A DNA stretch of 27,687 nucleotides, taken from NCBI GenBank assembly GCA_035457045.1, contig DATICC010000004.1, forward strand, positions 1 to 27,687, written 5' to 3'. Below the pieces are notes generated by a model. It did no database searches. It was not told the DNA's origin and was given only the letters and a program-made list of their open reading frames with translations. Positions 14,385-25,286 of the stretch are shown one piece after another (the first letter of the stretch is position 1; each line of letters begins with the position of its first letter). Source of the stretch: Woeseiaceae bacterium (GTDB lineage: Bacteria > Pseudomonadota > Gammaproteobacteria > Steroidobacterales > Woeseiaceae). A program made the position numbers and the translations under genes.

Positions 14385-14470
14385 AAAGGGGTCGGACCGA
14401 TTTAAATCACACTGGCCCAGACCACGGTCAGAGTCAGATTGTGACTGATCTAAATCGGTCTGACCCCTTT
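14385..14470. repeat. REPIN/MITE-like element 2: 24-bp inverted arms around a 38-bp spacer
   Basis: AAAGGGGTCGGACCGATTTAAATC (14385-14408) versus the reverse complement of 14447-14470; 22/24 match; spacer aligns without gaps to the element 1 spacer at 27/38. Confidence 0.9.
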
Positions 14471-15592
14471 TTTGCCAATCCTGCGGACCACTGTGAACAC
14501 TTCGTCGTTGAACCAGAGGCCGCCGTACTTTTGCAGTACTTGCTCGGTTGCGTCGAGGTAAATGGGGGTCGCCATGGCCGGTTCGAGCCTCTCGTCCTCG
14601 ATCTGCGCGACGTAGACGGCCGCGTTCCACGCGGCGAACAGTGTCGACGTTCCGATGTTCGACTGAATCTCGTCCGGCAACGTGTGCATCTCGTAGCTGA
14701 TGATCGCCTCGGAGTCCGAGATCGCGCGGAAGTCGTACTCCGCGACGTCACCCTTGAGCTGTCGGCGCAGCACGTCCAGCAGCTCGTGTCGATTGACCTT
14801 GAACGGGTCCTCGCCGGGCCAGATCCGGCGGATCAGTTCGAGTCCCGGGTCGTTGCCACTGGACTGCGCGATGACCGCCCGGCCTCCCGGAGCGAGTGCC
14901 CGGCACATGGGTTCCAGCACCCGCTTGACCTTGAATTCGGCGTCCATTCGGGCCCGCCAGGGCTGGGATACGAGGATGAGGTCGTAGTCCGCGCGCCCGT
15001 CGCCCGGGCGCGGCCGGATATCGTCCAGGGCGAAAGCATGATCCTCGCGATACAACACGAGCACCGACGGTTTTTCGTACAACGGATTGCCGGTTTTTTC
15101 GCTCGCCCTGACCTTCCAGCCGTCCACGAGTTGCGGGTCGAGTGCGCGCAGCTGTTCCCCAAAGTCTGCGGCCGTGTTATTCCGCAGCGGCACATCGAGC
15201 CAGTTCAAGCGGTCCTTCCCTTCGACAGTCAACCATGGCGACTCGGTGTATTTGAGATTGGTGAAGATGACGACGGTTGCCGGATGCTCGACAAAACGAT
15301 CGGGCAGCTTGTCGAGGCTCATGCGTATGTCCTCGAGGCTGATTTCCTTGCCGACGACAAACAGTGGAATGGTCGGAAAGGATTTGTGCGTCGCGCGCAT
15401 GACGTGGCTCAACAAAGTCCCATCGCCCATACCGGCATCGTAGATGCGCAATGCCGGTGGCGTCGGCTTCACGTGGCCGACTTCCGCGATCGCACGCTCG
15501 GCTATTTTCCACTTCTCGTTGCAGGTGGTTATGAAGGAGAGGTATTTCTGCCGATTGTCATAGAAGCGGAATGGCTTGCCGTCGCGTCCCAT
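14450..15592 (-). CDS. Conserved hypothetical protein, class I SAM-dependent methyltransferase-like
   Basis: 380 aa; motif I-like LRIYDAGMGDGTLL, acidic post-beta2 VGKEIS, later YDLILVSQPW; substrate unknown. Confidence 0.65.
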   Translation of the reverse strand: MGRDGKPFRFYDNRQKYLSFITTCNEKWKIAERAIAEVGHVKPTPPALRIYDAGMGDGTLLSHVMRATHKSFPTIPLFVVGKEISLEDIRMSLDKLPDRFVEHPATVVIFTNLKYTESPWLTVEGKDRLNWLDVPLRNNTAADFGEQLRALDPQLVDGWKVRASEKTGNPLYEKPSVLVLYREDHAFALDDIRPRPGDGRADYDLILVSQPWRARMDAEFKVKRVLEPMCRALAPGGRAVIAQSSGNDPGLELIRRIWPGEDPFKVNRHELLDVLRRQLKGDVAEYDFRAISDSEAIISYEMHTLPDEIQSNIGTSTLFAAWNAAVYVAQIEDERLEPAMATPIYLDATEQVLQKYGGLWFNDEVFTVVRRIGKKGVRPI

Positions 15593-15635
15593 GCTTATGC
15601 CCTTTGGTTTCCGCCGGCCACGGTGCGCAGCGCCT

Positions 15636-16772
15636 TCAACTCGAACAATGTTTCGACGCGATCTCCGCGCCTTCCGCGAGGCTCTGCAGCTTCGCCCAGG
15701 CCACGTCCGGATCGATGCCCCGCATGCCGACGTGCACGCTGAATCCGCAATCCACGCCCGCCATCACGCGCTCGGGCCCGACGATGTTGACGAAGTGCTC
15801 GATGCGTTGTGCGACCAGTTCGGGATGCTCGATGTAGTTTGACTGCGGTTCGATGACGCCGGGGCACAGTGTCTTTTGCTCCGGAATGTCCATCTGCTCG
15901 AACAGCTTCCACTCGTGCGCATGGCGCGGATTGGCCGCTTCGAAGAGAACCGTGTCGGGCTTGGCCTTCCACACCAGGTCCATGATCCCGGTAACGGGGA
16001 CGTCGCAATGATGCGGCCCCGGATAGTTGCCCCAGCAGAGATGCATGCGCAGCTGGCTCGACGGTATGTTCCGCACGCTGTGATTCAAAGCCTCGATGTT
16101 CATCTGCACCCGCTTGCGAAAGGCTTTTGCATCCAGGTCGGCGAACACCGTGTGCCGGCCCATCGCGAGGTCCGGGCAATCGAGTTGCACGGCGGCACCG
16201 GCTGCCGCGATGGCCTCGTATTCGTGGCGCATGGCTTCAGCAATTGCGAAGACGTATTCCTCATCGCTCGCGTAGTACTCGTTGGGAAAGAAAAGCGCGA
16301 CGACGCCCGGCGAGGCTGCGCTGGAGAAGATCCGCTCCACGCCGGCGGCGCTGGCAGCACGTTGCAGGTTGACCATGTCCTCGGCTGCCGCCTGCGTGTC
16401 CTTCACGGTTATCGGTCCGGTACACGCGGGTGCGGTCCGCTTGCGACGGCCGGGATTGGCCGCGACCAGTTCCATGCTTTTCGGGTACTCGGCGAGATCA
16501 GCGAAATAGTAATTCTCGGGCGACTTGCCGCCGAAGCCGTCCAGCCGGTCCTTGACGTAAGTCGCGTAGCTCGGTTTCGACATCTCGCCGTCGTTGATGA
16601 CATCGATCCCGGCATCGACCTGCCTGCGTACCGTGTCATCGACGGCCCGCGCCACGAGTTGTGCCAGCGCCTTCTCGTCCACCGGCACGCCGTCGCCTTT
16701 CGCCCACATCGCCGCGATCAGCTCTTCGGGCCTCGGCAGGCTGCCGGTATGGGTTGTCAGGATCCGCGCCAT
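15636..16772 (-). CDS. Cobalamin-independent methionine synthase II family protein (single catalytic barrel)
   Basis: TTHTGSLPRP, DGEMSK, HLCWGN (H-x-C), LFEAAN, PGVI, GVDCGF; no MetE N-terminal barrel. Confidence 0.88.
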   Translation of the reverse strand: MARILTTHTGSLPRPEELIAAMWAKGDGVPVDEKALAQLVARAVDDTVRRQVDAGIDVINDGEMSKPSYATYVKDRLDGFGGKSPENYYFADLAEYPKSMELVAANPGRRKRTAPACTGPITVKDTQAAAEDMVNLQRAASAAGVERIFSSAASPGVVALFFPNEYYASDEEYVFAIAEAMRHEYEAIAAAGAAVQLDCPDLAMGRHTVFADLDAKAFRKRVQMNIEALNHSVRNIPSSQLRMHLCWGNYPGPHHCDVPVTGIMDLVWKAKPDTVLFEAANPRHAHEWKLFEQMDIPEQKTLCPGVIEPQSNYIEHPELVAQRIEHFVNIVGPERVMAGVDCGFSVHVGMRGIDPDVAWAKLQSLAEGAEIASKHCSS

Positions 16773-23644: not shown

Positions 23645-23654
23645 ATCGCGACAC

Positions 23655-24467
23655 ATGTGGATCGATGTCGGGCAGGGCCGGCTGTACGTCGAGGTTACAG
23701 GCAACGGTCCGCCGCTGCTTGCGATTCACGGCTGGCCGCTCGATCACCGCGTTTTCGAACCGCAGGTCAGCGGATTGTCTTCCTCGCTCAAGGTCATTGC
23801 CTACGACCGCCGTGGCTTCGGCAAGTCGGAGGCGCGCCCGGACCTGCGCCTCGAGGTCGCTGATATCGATCACATACTCGACGCACTCGATCTCCCCTCG
23901 GTGCACCTGCTCGGCATGTCGCAAGGCGGCCGCATAGCGCTTCGATATGCAGTCACACACCGCCATCGATTGCGCTCGTTGATATTGCAAGGCGCCGTCA
24001 TCGACGGCCTGCACGTGGCGGAACCGGATGCAGATCGGATCCCGATTGCCGAATACTCGGCACTTGCGAAGAGCGGTCGTCTCGATGAAGTCCGGCGGCG
24101 CTGGCTGCGGCACCCGATGATGCAGCTCGGCGCCGGCTTCGATGCTGCATCGGACCTGTTGCAGGGGATCCTCGCCGACTACGCCGGCGCGGATCTCATC
24201 GACTTCGACGCGAACCGGTACCACTTCTCGGCCGATCTCCTCACGGCGCTGTCCGCACTGAATGTGCCGACGCTGCTGCTCACGGGCGCGCAGGAAACGC
24301 GGGCGCGCAAACGGCATGCCGATGAGATCGAGTCGCGCGTTGCAGATTGCGTGAGGTTGCAGCTCGAGAGCAGCGGACATTTGAGCAACCTGACGGAGCC
24401 CGAGCGCTACAACCGCGCCGTGCGTGAGTTTTGCGAAAAGGTCGAGACGGCGGGCGGCCCGCTATAA
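23655..24467 (+). CDS. Alpha/beta fold hydrolase
   Basis: HGWPLD, YDRRGFGKS, nucleophile elbow GMSQGG, C-terminal SGHL; an alternative GTG start at 23625 is possible. Confidence 0.9.
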   Translation: MWIDVGQGRLYVEVTGNGPPLLAIHGWPLDHRVFEPQVSGLSSSLKVIAYDRRGFGKSEARPDLRLEVADIDHILDALDLPSVHLLGMSQGGRIALRYAVTHRHRLRSLILQGAVIDGLHVAEPDADRIPIAEYSALAKSGRLDEVRRRWLRHPMMQLGAGFDAASDLLQGILADYAGADLIDFDANRYHFSADLLTALSALNVPTLLLTGAQETRARKRHADEIESRVADCVRLQLESSGHLSNLTEPERYNRAVREFCEKVETAGGPL

Positions 24468-25286
24468 CGCTGCACTGCGGATCGAGTCAGCCAGGATGGG
24501 GTACCTGCGCAGCTCGACCTCGATTTTTCGCGCCGCTTTGGTCAGTTCCGGCAAGCGCGATTCCACCATCGCCTGCATGTTCACCCGGGTCGTCGCTGTC
24601 GAACAGTTGATCGCCGCGAGTATCTCCCCCTGCGGGCCAAACACCGGTACTGCCACCGACACGATGCCATAATCGAGCTCGTCCTGGATGGACGCATAAC
24701 CCTGCTTGCGGATGTGGGCGAGGATCTTCCTGAATTGCGACTTGGAGGTGATTGTTTTCGTCGTCAGCTTCGCCATGTCGACCTTGCCGATGTATTCCTC
24801 TACGCGTGATGGTTCCTCGAACGCGAGCAGGACCCGCCCGAGCGAGGTCGGATAGACCGGAAAACGCGTGCCGAAGCCGGCGGCGAGGCGAATCATGCGA
24901 TTCGTCGACACATGGACAAGATAAAGAATCTCCGTGTTCGAAAGGACTGCGAGCGAAGAACTGTCGCCCGTCCTGTCGCGAACTTCCTGCAAATGCGGCC
25001 TGACCACCTCGTCGAGATTCATCGATTCGATGAACGCCGATGCGAAACCCATGACTTCCGGTGTCAGCAGGAACAACTTGCCCTTCCGACCGACATAACC
25101 GAGCTCGACCAGGGTGTGCAGGCAGCGCCTGGCGACGGCCGGGCTCAAGCCCGTCACCGCCGCAACTTCGCTGATCGTCATTTCCGGCCGTTCCCGGGTA
25201 AACGAGCGCAATGTCGAAAGGCCACGGGCCAGCGTACTGAGGTATTCCCCGTCCTTTTTCCTGGGCTTCGACTTGTCGACACTCAT
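24462..25286 (-). CDS. IclR-family transcriptional regulator (PcaR/PobR subgroup)
   Basis: YLSTLARGL, HTH SEVAAVTGLSPAVARRCLHTLVELGY, G.RFP.YPTSLGR.LLA, ELDYGI.SVAVPV. Confidence 0.93.
   Translation of the reverse strand: MSVDKSKPRKKDGEYLSTLARGLSTLRSFTRERPEMTISEVAAVTGLSPAVARRCLHTLVELGYVGRKGKLFLLTPEVMGFASAFIESMNLDEVVRPHLQEVRDRTGDSSSLAVLSNTEILYLVHVSTNRMIRLAAGFGTRFPVYPTSLGRVLLAFEEPSRVEEYIGKVDMAKLTTKTITSKSQFRKILAHIRKQGYASIQDELDYGIVSVAVPVFGPQGEILAAINCSTATTRVNMQAMVESRLPELTKAARKIEVELRRYPILADSIRSAAL

What the first reader, a model, noticed from the sequence alone, without database searches (positions are those of the whole stretch)
14450..25286. Uncharacterised IclR-controlled uptake and catabolism island
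Seen: seven co-oriented genes with gaps of 3-58 bp (TBDR, VOC, WrbA-like, CoA ligase, two MetE-like, SAM-MTase-like) diverge from a citryl-CoA-lyase-like gene plus hydrolase, which converge on an IclR gene. Established: PcaR/PobR-type IclRs and PaaK-type ligases typically act on aromatic or organic acids, some TBDRs import aromatics (DdvT of Sphingobium SYK-6), and citryl-CoA-lyase folds cleave C-C bonds of acyl-CoA substrates. Inference: import, CoA activation, Zn-dependent alkyl/methyl transfer and retro-aldol cleavage of an unknown compound. I know no described pathway with this combination.
Basis: partly seen in the sequence, partly recalled or inferred. Interest (0 to 1): 0.62.

Follow-up and report, generated by a model that had tools for sequence, protein, structure and literature searches.

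The report
IclR-controlled aromatic uptake and breakdown island
This is a real, repressor-controlled gene island, shared patchily by sediment and soil bacteria, that most likely imports and breaks down an oxidation-prone aromatic acid with unusual enzymes (two methionine-synthase-like zinc proteins and an atypical citrate-synthase-fold protein); I found no described pathway that matches it.

Summary
The gene layout is confirmed. On the minus strand lie TBDR, VOC, a WrbA-like flavoprotein, a PaaK-like ligase, two single-barrel MetE-like proteins and a SAM-methyltransferase-fold protein, with gaps of 3-58 bp. They diverge from a citryl-CoA-lyase-like gene plus an esterase, which converge on a PcaR-type IclR gene.

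The core set recurs in Woeseiaceae, Halieaceae, Steroidobacteraceae, Hyphomonadaceae/Parvularculaceae and Erythrobacteraceae. Outside the gammaproteobacteria the ligase is replaced by a family III CoA-transferase. Sister clusters in Burkholderiales, Actinomycetota and on Aminobacter MSH1 plasmid pUSP2 carry an intradiol or LigB-type ring-cleavage dioxygenase where this island has the VOC gene.

A dual operator (TTCG-N5-CGAA twice, 19 bp apart) sits in the divergent promoter region. It marks every IclR-type cluster and occurs nowhere else in 1.56 Mb of related loci.

- The methyltransferase and MetE2 are accessory, not core.
- The lyase-like protein lacks the catalytic Asp of true citryl-CoA lyases.
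- MetE1 is a MesD-like protein with intact zinc and homocysteine sites.
- The VOC protein most resembles a VOC-type homogentisate dioxygenase.

The substrate and the role of the MetE-like proteins remain inferred. My ten literature searches found no matching pathway. Earlier notes of this scan describe sister clusters on other DNA.

The parts
24462..25286 (-). IclR-family regulator, PcaR/PcaU/PobR-like
   Evidence: Pfam HTH_IclR plus IclR_C. TIGR02431 scores 258 bits against a cut-off of 284.75. Orthologues of 47-78% identity lie in all G-type and A-type clusters.
23655..24467 (+). alpha/beta-fold esterase or lactonase
   Evidence: Pfam Abhydrolase_1. The nearest solved relatives are esterases, arylesterases and PcaD enol-lactonase. 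Start refined.
22871..23644 (+). short citrate-synthase-fold protein (citryl-CoA-lyase-like, atypical)
   Evidence: 6hxp citryl-CoA lyase, E 9.5e-30. NF004868 scores 284 bits against a cut-off of 193. The catalytic Asp of the 'LNVDGAI' motif is Ser here and S/N/A across the family.
22730..22761 (.). dual operator: two 13-bp palindromes TTCGATATGCGAA, 19 bp start to start, in the divergent promoter region
   Evidence: Read directly. These are 2 of the 3 window matches to TTCGN5CGAA. The motif is conserved in 8 of 8 gammaproteobacterial clusters, and all 24 pairs found in 1.56 Mb of loci lie in IclR-cluster loci.
20450..22681 (-). TonB-dependent outer-membrane receptor
   Evidence: Plug plus beta-barrel domains. 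A signal peptide follows the M at 22681. Homologues are about 741 aa.
19876..20418 (-). single-domain VOC metalloenzyme, probable hydroquinone-type ring-cleavage dioxygenase
   Evidence: Pfam Glyoxalase. The model has pLDDT 91.6. The top fold match is 9u42, a VOC-type 'homogentisate 1,2-dioxygenase', E 6e-13 and TM 0.75-0.79. The profile match has E 1.5e-17 with the His/His/Glu positions kept.
19273..19854 (-). WrbA-like flavodoxin-fold NAD(P)H:quinone oxidoreductase
   Evidence: Pfam FMN_red and Flavodoxin_1. NF002999 and TIGR01755 score below their cut-offs. Start refined.
17874..19214 (-). PaaK-family adenylating CoA ligase
   Evidence: AMP-binding plus AMP-binding_C_2. PaaK structures match at E about 1e-56 and 2-hydroxyisobutyryl-CoA synthetase at 3e-45. 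A family III CoA-transferase takes its place in other lineages.
16830..17870 (-). MetE1: MesD-like single-barrel Zn enzyme with an intact homocysteine site
   Evidence: 3RPD (MesD), E 1.6e-56. The alignment keeps the Ser, Glu and Asp that bind homocysteine, the MesD-specific Tyr and the Zn ligands H, C, E, C. All are at least 97% conserved in 85 homologues.
15636..16772 (-). MetE2: divergent second MetE-like Zn enzyme (accessory regulon member)
   Evidence: Meth_synt_2. It is 24% identical to MetE1. The Zn and amino-acid-site residues are invariant or nearly so in 19 homologues. It has its own operator pair in L078 and is absent from the Halieaceae clusters.
14450..15592 (-). class I SAM-methyltransferase-fold protein (accessory, lineage-specific)
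   Evidence: No Pfam match. The model has pLDDT 85.8. The top Foldseek hits are histamine N-methyltransferase and other small-molecule methyltransferases. It is linked to the cluster only in the window, L002, L012, L031 and L049, and has its own operator pair in L012.

Best explanation
The region is a horizontally mobile regulon repressed by an IclR regulator, for uptake and catabolism of an oxidation-prone, hydroquinone- or benzenetriol-type aromatic carboxylic acid, probably carrying O-methyl or ester groups.

Shown by comparison:
- The genes form one conserved, co-regulated unit.
- The IclR protein's dual operator sits between the two divergent operons.

Inferred course:
1. The TonB-dependent receptor imports the compound.
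2. The WrbA-like quinone reductase keeps it in the reduced, cleavable form.
3. The VOC enzyme opens the ring. Intradiol or LigB-type dioxygenases hold this place in sister clusters.
4. The esterase/lactonase removes an ester or opens a lactone.
5. The PaaK-like ligase (a family III CoA-transferase elsewhere) turns the ring-fission acid into a CoA thioester.
6. The atypical citrate-synthase-fold enzyme processes that thioester, most simply by C-C cleavage to acetyl-CoA plus an oxo- or dicarboxylic acid.
7. MetE1, and MetE2 where present, bind homocysteine on zinc. My preferred but least certain step is that they take methyl groups from the substrate or its ring-fission methyl ester and make methionine.
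For: - Gene content and spacing.
- The full set is conserved in Woeseiaceae (L001, L002, L093-95), Halieaceae (L004, L005, L044), Steroidobacteraceae-like genomes (L013, L078) and alphaproteobacteria (L012, L031, L049, L079; L009, L034, L072).
- In relatives it lies at different chromosomal sites, without the window's flanking genes.
- The ligase is swapped for a family III CoA-transferase next to the CS-like gene.
- Of the 27 CS-like loci tabulated plus the Aminobacter locus L097, all hold a VOC, intradiol or LigB-type dioxygenase; the window's own carries the VOC gene.
- The VOC fold is closest to the VOC-type homogentisate dioxygenase 9u42.
- An aromatic FAD hydroxylase lies in L013.
- TRAP, TctC and Liv-ABC transporters replace the TBDR elsewhere, which implies a carboxylate substrate.
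- The dual operator is found only in IclR-cluster loci: 24 pairs in 1.56 Mb.
- MetE1 keeps every Zn and homocysteine-site residue of MesD/3RPD (Price et al. 2021, PMC7857596). MetE2 does likewise.
- The genome has MetH, so MetE1 is not needed as the housekeeping methionine synthase.
Against: - No substrate is identified, and the 9u42 function is known to me only from its PDB title.
- The CS-like protein lacks the Asp base of CCL/ACLY.
- Direct methyl transfer from an aryl methyl ether or methyl ester to a Zn-thiolate has no precedent in this enzyme family.
- The module has no recognisable hydratase, which a citryl-CoA-type lyase substrate would need. MetE1 might fill that role instead.
- 54 of 85 close MetE1 homologues have none of the window's cluster genes nearby. 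Of the flanking genes of those loci, 118 were scanned against Pfam and showed no recurrent partner.
- L040 has both a VOC and an intradiol dioxygenase, so the VOC may not be the ring opener.
Confidence: 0.45

Rival explanations
1. The catabolic regulon is the same, but MetE1 and MetE2 are not methyl-transferases. They use the zinc site to add water, or a homocysteine or cysteine thiol, to a double bond of the ring-fission product. That would make them a hydratase, or a thiol-dependent cis-trans isomerase like the maleylpyruvate isomerases. The product would be the tertiary-alcohol or isomerised acid that the CoA-activating enzyme and the CS-fold enzyme then cleave.
For: - Dioxygenase, MetE1, CoA activation and the CS-like protein form the invariant core across phyla, and no other hydratase or isomerase candidate is present.
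- MetE1 has many invariant Arg and Lys residues (R35, R37, R43, R113, R198, R236, K319, R323) that MesD lacks, which fits a polycarboxylate or CoA-ester substrate.
- From my own knowledge: Zn-dependent TIM-barrel hydratases (LigJ) and metal- and thiol-dependent maleylpyruvate isomerases exist in other superfamilies.
Against: I know of no hydratase or isomerase in the MetE/URO-D clan. The Ser, Glu and Asp that hold the amino-acid end of homocysteine in 3RPD, and the Cys2-His-Glu zinc site typical of thiol alkylation, are at least 97% conserved.
Confidence: 0.25
2. The substrate is not aromatic. The island handles an aliphatic polycarboxylate or a methylated small acid, such as a citrate or itaconate analogue or a sulfonium or betaine-type methyl donor. 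The VOC protein would act as an isomerase or epimerase on a CoA ester, and the MetE-like proteins would demethylate the compound.
For: - The PaaK-like ligase also resembles 2-hydroxyisobutyryl-CoA synthetase.
- The CoA-transferase scores with the mesaconate, glutarate and oxalate families.
- From my own knowledge: VOC proteins include methylmalonyl-CoA epimerase, and a VOC gene sits in the Pseudomonas itaconate operon.
Against: - Sister operons carry bona fide intradiol and LigB-type ring-cleavage dioxygenases and an aromatic FAD hydroxylase in the same transcription units.
- The VOC protein's best fold and profile match by a wide margin is a ring-cleaving dioxygenase.
- The regulator is of the PcaR/PobR type.
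Confidence: 0.12
3. The main purpose is B12-independent methionine synthesis. MetE1 and MetE2 are a new kind of core methionine synthase, and the rest of the island exists to import and process the compound that donates the methyl group, as MesX does for MesD.
For: - MetE1 is a MesD relative with an intact homocysteine site.
- The genome has only B12-dependent MetH, with no full MetE and no MesX.
- MesD's methyl donor is unknown and needs O2 (PMC7857596). The island has an O2-using VOC enzyme.
Against: - Control is by a catabolic-type IclR rather than by methionine or SAM signals.
- A CoA-dependent C-C cleavage module and an esterase would not be needed just to supply a methyl group.
- The genome is only 88.8% complete, so the absence of MetE or MesX is not proven.
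Confidence: 0.1
4. The stretch is a chance mosaic of unrelated genes, not one functional unit.
For: The methyltransferase-fold gene and MetE2 come and go between relatives.
Against: The eight-gene core is syntenic in three gammaproteobacterial families and rearranged but complete in alphaproteobacteria. A shared dual operator precedes each transcription unit.
Confidence: 0.03

Closest known systems
MesD/MesX folate-independent methionine synthase (Price, Deutschbauer and Arkin 2021, PMC7857596; structure 3RPD)
   Same: MetE1 is a single-barrel 'core' MetE. 3RPD is its best solved relative (E 1.6e-56). It has the same Zn ligands, the same Ser/Glu/Asp homocysteine site and the MesD-specific Tyr.
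   Different: No MesX (DUF1852) was found in the genome. MetE1 has a 10-residue Arg-rich insertion and further conserved basic residues that MesD lacks. It is embedded in a catabolic operon and paired with a second, 24%-identical MetE-like protein.
Citryl-CoA lyase (CCL) of Hydrogenobacter thermophilus and the CCL module of ATP-citrate lyase (6hxp, 6qcl)
   Same: A short citrate-synthase-fold protein of about 257 aa. It keeps both catalytic His positions and the DPR and AR oxaloacetate-binding Arg positions. It passes the NCBIfam citryl-CoA lyase subfamily model.
   Different: The catalytic Asp ('LNVDGAI') is Ser, Asn or Ala in all 17 family members aligned. Its partner is a PaaK-like ligase or a family III CoA-transferase, not a citryl-CoA synthetase.
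Homogentisate, gentisate and hydroxyquinol central pathways of aerobic aromatic catabolism
   Same: An IclR-type regulator is linked to a ring-cleaving dioxygenase for a para-diol or triol, a quinone reductase and a hydrolase. The VOC protein resembles a VOC-type homogentisate dioxygenase.
   Different: No recognisable cupin HmgA or gentisate dioxygenase, glutathione-type isomerase, FAH hydrolase or maleylacetate reductase. The lower pathway is CoA-dependent and built on a CS-fold enzyme and MetE-like proteins.
Protocatechuate 4,5-cleavage and gallate pathways (LigAB-LigC-LigI-LigJ-LigK; GalA-D)
   Same: Sister clusters use a LigB-type dioxygenase. The logic of ring cleavage, hydrolase, Zn TIM-barrel enzyme and then C-C lyase is parallel.
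   Different: None of LigC, LigI, LigJ or LigK is present. The lyase step is CoA-dependent.
DdvT-type TonB-dependent uptake of lignin-derived aromatics in Sphingobium sp. SYK-6
   Same: A TBDR is encoded inside an aromatic catabolic operon.
   Different: No orthology to DdvT was tested. In other lineages the same pathway uses TRAP, TctC or ABC uptake systems.

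Membership tests
Citryl-CoA lyase (CCL/ACLY citrate-synthase-homology module) | Short citrate-synthase fold with significant similarity to CCL | tested here: met
   6hxp, E 9.5e-30; the family profile reaches 1e-47. NF004868 scores 284.5 bits against a cut-off of 193.
Citryl-CoA lyase (CCL/ACLY citrate-synthase-homology module) | Catalytic Asp (pig CS D375, ACLY D1026; numbering recalled) in the N-V-D-G motif | tested here: not met
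   The window has MNVSAAI where CCL and ACLY have LNVDGAI/LNVDGTI. The position is S, N or A in all 17 homologues aligned.
Citryl-CoA lyase (CCL/ACLY citrate-synthase-homology module) | Partnered with a succinyl-CoA-synthetase-like citryl-CoA synthetase | tested here: not met
   The partner is a PaaK-like ligase or a family III CoA-transferase.
MesD core methionine synthase | Single Meth_synt_2 barrel with the Zn ligands His, Cys, Glu, Cys | tested here: met
   H224, C226, E257 and C316 are at least 97% conserved in 85 sequences.
MesD core methionine synthase | Homocysteine-binding Ser, Glu and Asp, plus the MesD-specific Tyr | tested here: met
   S15, E76, D191 and Y229 align with Ser22, Glu73, Asp188 and Tyr226 of 3RPD.
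MesD core methionine synthase | Encoded with MesX (DUF1852) | tested here: not met
   PF08908 was not found in the 88.8%-complete genome, but the control genomes also gave no hit, so the test is weak. No such neighbour appears in any of the 85 loci.
MesD core methionine synthase | High similarity to ACIAD3523 (390 bits or more by BLASTp in Price et al.) | not testable with these tools
   The reference sequence was not on hand. The score to MesD 3RPD is only 195 bits, which suggests a sister family.
PcaR/PcaU/PobR subfamily of IclR regulators | HTH_IclR plus IclR_C, and the TIGR02431 cut-off | tested here: inconclusive
   Both domains are present. TIGR02431 scores 258.1 bits, just under the 284.75 cut-off.
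PcaR/PcaU/PobR subfamily of IclR regulators | Palindromic operator repeats in the target promoter | tested here: met
   The dual TTCG-N5-CGAA boxes are conserved in all IclR-type clusters. Binding itself was not tested.
Phenylacetate-CoA ligase PaaK | Equivalog score | tested here: not met
   TIGR02155 scores 231 bits against 646, and NF041878 scores 236 against 700. It is a member of the wider family only.
WrbA NAD(P)H:quinone oxidoreductase type IV | Equivalog score | tested here: not met
   TIGR01755 scores 69.9 bits against 132.5, and NF002999 scores 80.9 against 141. The flavodoxin-like FMN_red fold is present.
VOC-type ring-cleaving (homogentisate-type) dioxygenase, 9u42-like | VOC fold with conserved metal-binding His, His and Glu | tested here: met
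   TM 0.75-0.79, E 6e-13. H12/H13, H55, H91 and E140 are invariant and align with 9u42.
VOC-type ring-cleaving (homogentisate-type) dioxygenase, 9u42-like | O2-dependent ring cleavage of a hydroquinone substrate | not testable with these tools
   Identity to 9u42 is only 23%, and that protein's function is known to me from the PDB title alone.
TonB-dependent receptor | Signal peptide, plug and 22-strand barrel domains | tested here: met
   Pfam Plug and TonB_dep_Rec_b-barrel. The N-terminus reads MKNVVTLLLTGVIASLAMPEVRAQE.

The most novel reading that the evidence does not exclude
MetE1, with MetE2, is a fifth family of 'core' methionine synthases. It would take its methyl group directly from a methoxylated aromatic acid or from the methyl ester left by ring cleavage. 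O-demethylation in an aerobic catabolic pathway would then be coupled to methionine formation without folate, cobalamin or an oxygenase. The atypical Asp-less citrate-synthase-fold enzyme would carry out a new CoA-dependent C-C cleavage of the ring-fission product.
Probability: 0.25. Interest if true: 0.85.

Novelty: new variant of a known kind. Interest (0 to 1): 0.62.

Why it matters
Aerobic aromatic catabolism is thought to funnel into a handful of well-mapped lower pathways. This regulon, and its sister clusters in at least three phyla, would add a CoA-dependent route built from enzyme families not known in that role. It would also place a MesD-like homocysteine-binding enzyme in a defined chemical context. 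That makes the open question of what such folate-independent 'core' methionine synthases use as co-substrate directly testable. The carriers are abundant coastal-sediment and soil bacteria (Woeseiaceae, Halieaceae, Burkholderiales), so the unknown substrate is probably an environmentally common phenolic. Cultured carriers and a natural plasmid-loss strain make experiments feasible.

Tried and rejected
Contexts were obtained with the search for related loci, the genome search and the fetch from genomes instead.
The others sought MetE-like catabolic clusters, methionine synthase with hydroxyquinol, citryl-CoA lyase with CoA-transferase and ring cleavage, PDB code 9U42, later MesX work, methoxyhydroquinone with methionine synthase, and a VOC-type homogentisate dioxygenase in Acinetobacter. 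None described this gene set. The Aminobacter MSH1 genome paper does not discuss the pUSP2 cluster.
- The idea that the 380-aa methyltransferase-fold protein is a core pathway enzyme is rejected. It remains an accessory regulon member in some lineages.
- The idea that the LeuCD-like genes next to the L012 cluster belong to the pathway is rejected. They pass the housekeeping leuC and leuD equivalog cut-offs.
- The idea that MetE1 is the genome's housekeeping methionine synthase is rejected, because MetH is present.
- The idea that MetE1 plus MetE2 form a split MetE is not supported. [quoted passage not shown]
- A search for a recurrent partner of MetE1 outside the clusters found none: 146 Pfam families among 118 neighbouring genes.
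- The 960-aa TBDR ORF is rejected as an artefact.

Full report
**1. What is in the sequence**

On the minus strand:
- a TonB-dependent receptor (Plug plus barrel)
- a 180-aa VOC protein
- a flavodoxin-fold, WrbA-like FMN reductase
- a PaaK-family adenylating ligase
- two single-barrel Meth_synt_2 proteins, MetE1 (346 aa) and MetE2 (378 aa), 24% identical to each other
- a 380-aa protein with no Pfam match

On the plus strand:
- a 257-aa citrate-synthase-family protein
- an alpha/beta hydrolase

The two plus-strand genes converge on a PcaR/PobR-like IclR gene.

Four starts needed correction:
- The 960-aa ORF over the receptor is an artefact. The real start is at 22681 (MKNVV..., signal peptide), which matches homologues of about 741 aa.
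- The ligase starts at 19214.
- The WrbA-like gene starts at 19854.
- The hydrolase starts at 23655.

The pattern scan found few terminator-like sites in the operon (7 across 14000-25800, against about 10.6 in shuffles), none a strong candidate on the minus strand between genes.

**2. The set recurs and is co-regulated**

A scan of one genome per species with MetE1 returned 80 loci. A tBLASTn of all window proteins against them, plus regions taken from relatives, gives four cluster types:
- Gammaproteobacterial type: the eight-gene core (IclR; esterase and CS-like; TBDR, VOC, WrbA-like, ligase, MetE1) is syntenic in Woeseiaceae (L001, L002, L093-L095) and Halieaceae (L004, L005, L044). Steroidobacteraceae-like genomes (L013, L078) have it in modified form.
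- Alphaproteobacterial type: Hyphomonadaceae/Parvularculaceae-type genomes (L012, L031 = Hyphococcus aureus, L049, L079) have the same families rearranged. A family III CoA-transferase next to the CS-like gene replaces the ligase.
- Erythrobacteraceae type: L009, L034 and L072 have CS-like, CoA-transferase, VOC, MetE1 and MetE2.
- Sister clusters: Burkholderiales loci (for example L014) have LysR, an intradiol dioxygenase, CS-like, CoA-transferase, TctC, a Liv-type ABC system, MetE1 and an amidohydrolase. Actinomycetota loci (L065, L075) and Aminobacter sp. MSH1 plasmid pUSP2 (L097) have IclR, CoA-transferase, CS-like, a LigB-type dioxygenase with a small subunit, and MetE1. The pUSP2 version adds a TRAP transporter, a CocE/NonD esterase and an FMN reductase.

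Of the 27 CS-like loci tabulated plus L097, all hold a VOC, intradiol or LigB-type dioxygenase. Only L040 has two of them.

In other Woeseiaceae the cluster lies without the window's flanking genes. The VOC gene was found in none of 150 other gammaproteobacterial families sampled. The island is therefore patchy and probably mobile.

The divergent intergenic region holds two identical 13-bp palindromes, TTCGATATGCGAA, 19 bp apart. The same dual box occurs in all eight gammaproteobacterial orthologous regions. Across 1.56 Mb of fetched loci there are 24 such pairs. All lie in IclR-bearing clusters, immediately upstream of one of the following:
- the TBDR gene
- the CS-like gene
- an unlinked MetE2 (L078)
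- a 212-aa ORF plus the methyltransferase-fold gene (L012)
- the pUSP2 operon

The gammaproteobacterial intergenic sequences printed show -10-like hexamers (TATAAT, TATGAT, TAGTAT) abutting the first box; this is my reading of those sequences. It fits repression of back-to-back promoters by the IclR protein, but binding was not tested.

**3. The individual proteins**

*MetE1.* Its best solved relative is 3RPD (E 1.6e-56), which Price et al. identify as MesD (PMC7857596). The alignment keeps the homocysteine-binding Ser, Glu and Asp, the MesD-specific Tyr (HICFGY) and the four Zn ligands. All are at least 97% conserved in 85 homologues. MetE1 also has a 10-residue Arg-rich insertion and other invariant basic residues that MesD lacks, which suggests an anionic co-substrate.

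*MetE2.* It keeps the equivalent residues.

*Other methionine synthases.* The genome (a MAG, 88.8% complete) encodes MetH. No full-length MetE or MesX was found.

*MetE1 family as a whole.* Its members are 65-83% identical to the window's protein across several phyla. On a quick tree the ligase-type clusters form one supported clade, and cluster-associated members fall in at least seven places. Outside the clusters, MetE1 has no recurrent neighbour.

*CS-like protein.* It matches Hydrogenobacter citryl-CoA lyase (6hxp) and passes NCBIfam NF004868. However, the catalytic Asp of the LNVDG motif in CCL and ACLY is Ser here, and Ser, Asn or Ala in all 17 homologues. The two His and two Arg positions are kept. 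It is therefore not a canonical citryl-CoA lyase.

*VOC protein.* The model (pLDDT 91.6) is closest by a wide margin to 9u42, titled a homogentisate 1,2-dioxygenase from Acinetobacter (E 6e-13, against 2e-7 for the next hit). The putative metal ligands are conserved.

*Hydrolase.* It groups with esterases, arylesterases and PcaD, not with C-C hydrolases.

*Ligase.* It is a PaaK-family member well below the equivalog cut-offs. It also resembles 2-hydroxyisobutyryl-CoA synthetase.

*380-aa protein.* It has a class I SAM-methyltransferase fold (pLDDT 85.8; histamine N-methyltransferase-like). It is present in 10 of 24 Woeseiaceae searched, but only one of those (G153) also has MetE1, and there on another contig. 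Three relatives have the full cluster without it within about 9 kb. It is adjacent to the MetE-like genes in five loci of two classes, and has its own operator pair in L012. It is an accessory member.

**4. How it most likely works**

Shown:
- This is one conserved, IclR-marked regulon.
- CoA activation and the CS-fold enzyme are a functional pair. Ligase and CoA-transferase are interchangeable, and the transferase is usually overlapping or adjacent to the CS-like gene.
- A ring-cleavage-type dioxygenase is always present.
- Transporters that need a carboxylate (TRAP, TctC) replace the TBDR elsewhere.

Inferred:
- The substrate is a hydroxylated aromatic carboxylic acid of the hydroquinone or benzenetriol type.
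- A quinone reductase keeps it reduced.
- The VOC enzyme opens the ring.
- The esterase trims the product.
- The product is CoA-activated and processed by the CS-fold enzyme.

The MetE-like proteins are the least certain step. Residue conservation says they bind homocysteine on zinc, so I favour methyl transfer to homocysteine. The pathway logic lacks a universal hydratase or isomerase, and MetE1 has extra basic residues. That keeps a hydratase or thiol-dependent isomerase role as a strong rival.

**5. Comparison with what is known, and novelty**

The island is not a member of the beta-ketoadipate, homogentisate, gentisate, hydroxyquinol or protocatechuate 4,5-cleavage pathways. Their defining lower-pathway enzymes are absent.

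My ten literature searches found no description of this gene set. The MSH1 genome paper does not mention the cluster. The searchable library is limited, so a description in a subscription journal cannot be excluded.

Earlier notes of this scan, on other genomes, describe the LigAB- and intradiol-type sister clusters and reached the same 'no paper found' result. I re-derived those clusters independently from L014, L075 and L097.

I rate it a new variant of a known kind: an aromatic catabolic regulon with non-canonical enzymology.

**6. Limits**

- There are no expression data and no biochemistry.
- Gene calls in the high-GC loci were made with a GC3 heuristic.
- The tree is a quick search, not the finished careful one.
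- The function of 9u42 rests on its title.
- The resemblance of the operator to PcaR/PobR boxes is from memory only.

Noticed in passing
window 20450-23332 (-) versus 22871-23644 (+): The longest ORF over the TBDR (960 aa) runs 651 bp upstream of the real start. It crosses the whole promoter region and overlaps the CS-like gene on the other strand. It would mislead a longest-ORF gene caller.
   Followed up: yes
L097 (Aminobacter sp. MSH1 plasmid pUSP2, NZ_CP028970.1 about 328,900-341,000): A cultured, well-studied strain carries a sister cluster: FMN reductase; IclR; TRAP DctPQM; CocE/NonD esterase; MetE1-like (annotated as uroporphyrinogen decarboxylase family); citryl-CoA lyase; CaiB CoA-transferase; LigB-type dioxygenase with a small subunit. 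It has the same dual operator and is followed by IS5 and IS110 transposases. Substrain MK1 lacks this plasmid.
   Followed up: partly
L012 11789-11820: A third copy of the dual operator lies directly after a -35-like TTGACA, downstream of genuine leuCD and upstream of a conserved 212-aa ORF plus the methyltransferase-fold gene. L049 has a 45%-identical copy of the 212-aa ORF. This suggests the pair is a separate transcription unit of the same regulon.
   Followed up: partly
window 25345-27663 (-): A Ser/Thr protein kinase (402 aa, with an N-terminal part of about 150 aa lacking any domain hit) and a 347-aa phosphoribosyltransferase-domain protein lie next to the IclR gene. Neither is found beside the cluster in relatives.
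   Followed up: no
own genome, contigs C10:2156-3553 and C78:2-2200: metH is split across two contig ends of the assembly, with the N-terminal 465 model positions on one and positions 450-1182 on the other. This is an assembly break, not evidence of a split gene.
   Followed up: no
L013 2571-3824 (-) and L078 11988-14243 (+): The Steroidobacteraceae-like versions of the cluster add an MhpA-like aromatic FAD monooxygenase (L013) and an acetyl-CoA-synthetase-like ligase plus a second MetE2-like gene (L078). No CS-like gene was found within the fetched loci.
   Followed up: partly
L022, L027, L033, L045 (Hyphomicrobiales and Rhodospirillaceae loci): MetE1 occurs with a 38-39%-identical MetE2-like gene. 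In L022, L027 and L033 a class V aminotransferase and a GlcD-type FAD oxidase fused to a 4Fe-4S domain are also present, with a TRAP permease in L027 and L033. None of these four loci has a CS-like or VOC gene. This second recurring context for the MetE pair may bear on their function.
   Followed up: no
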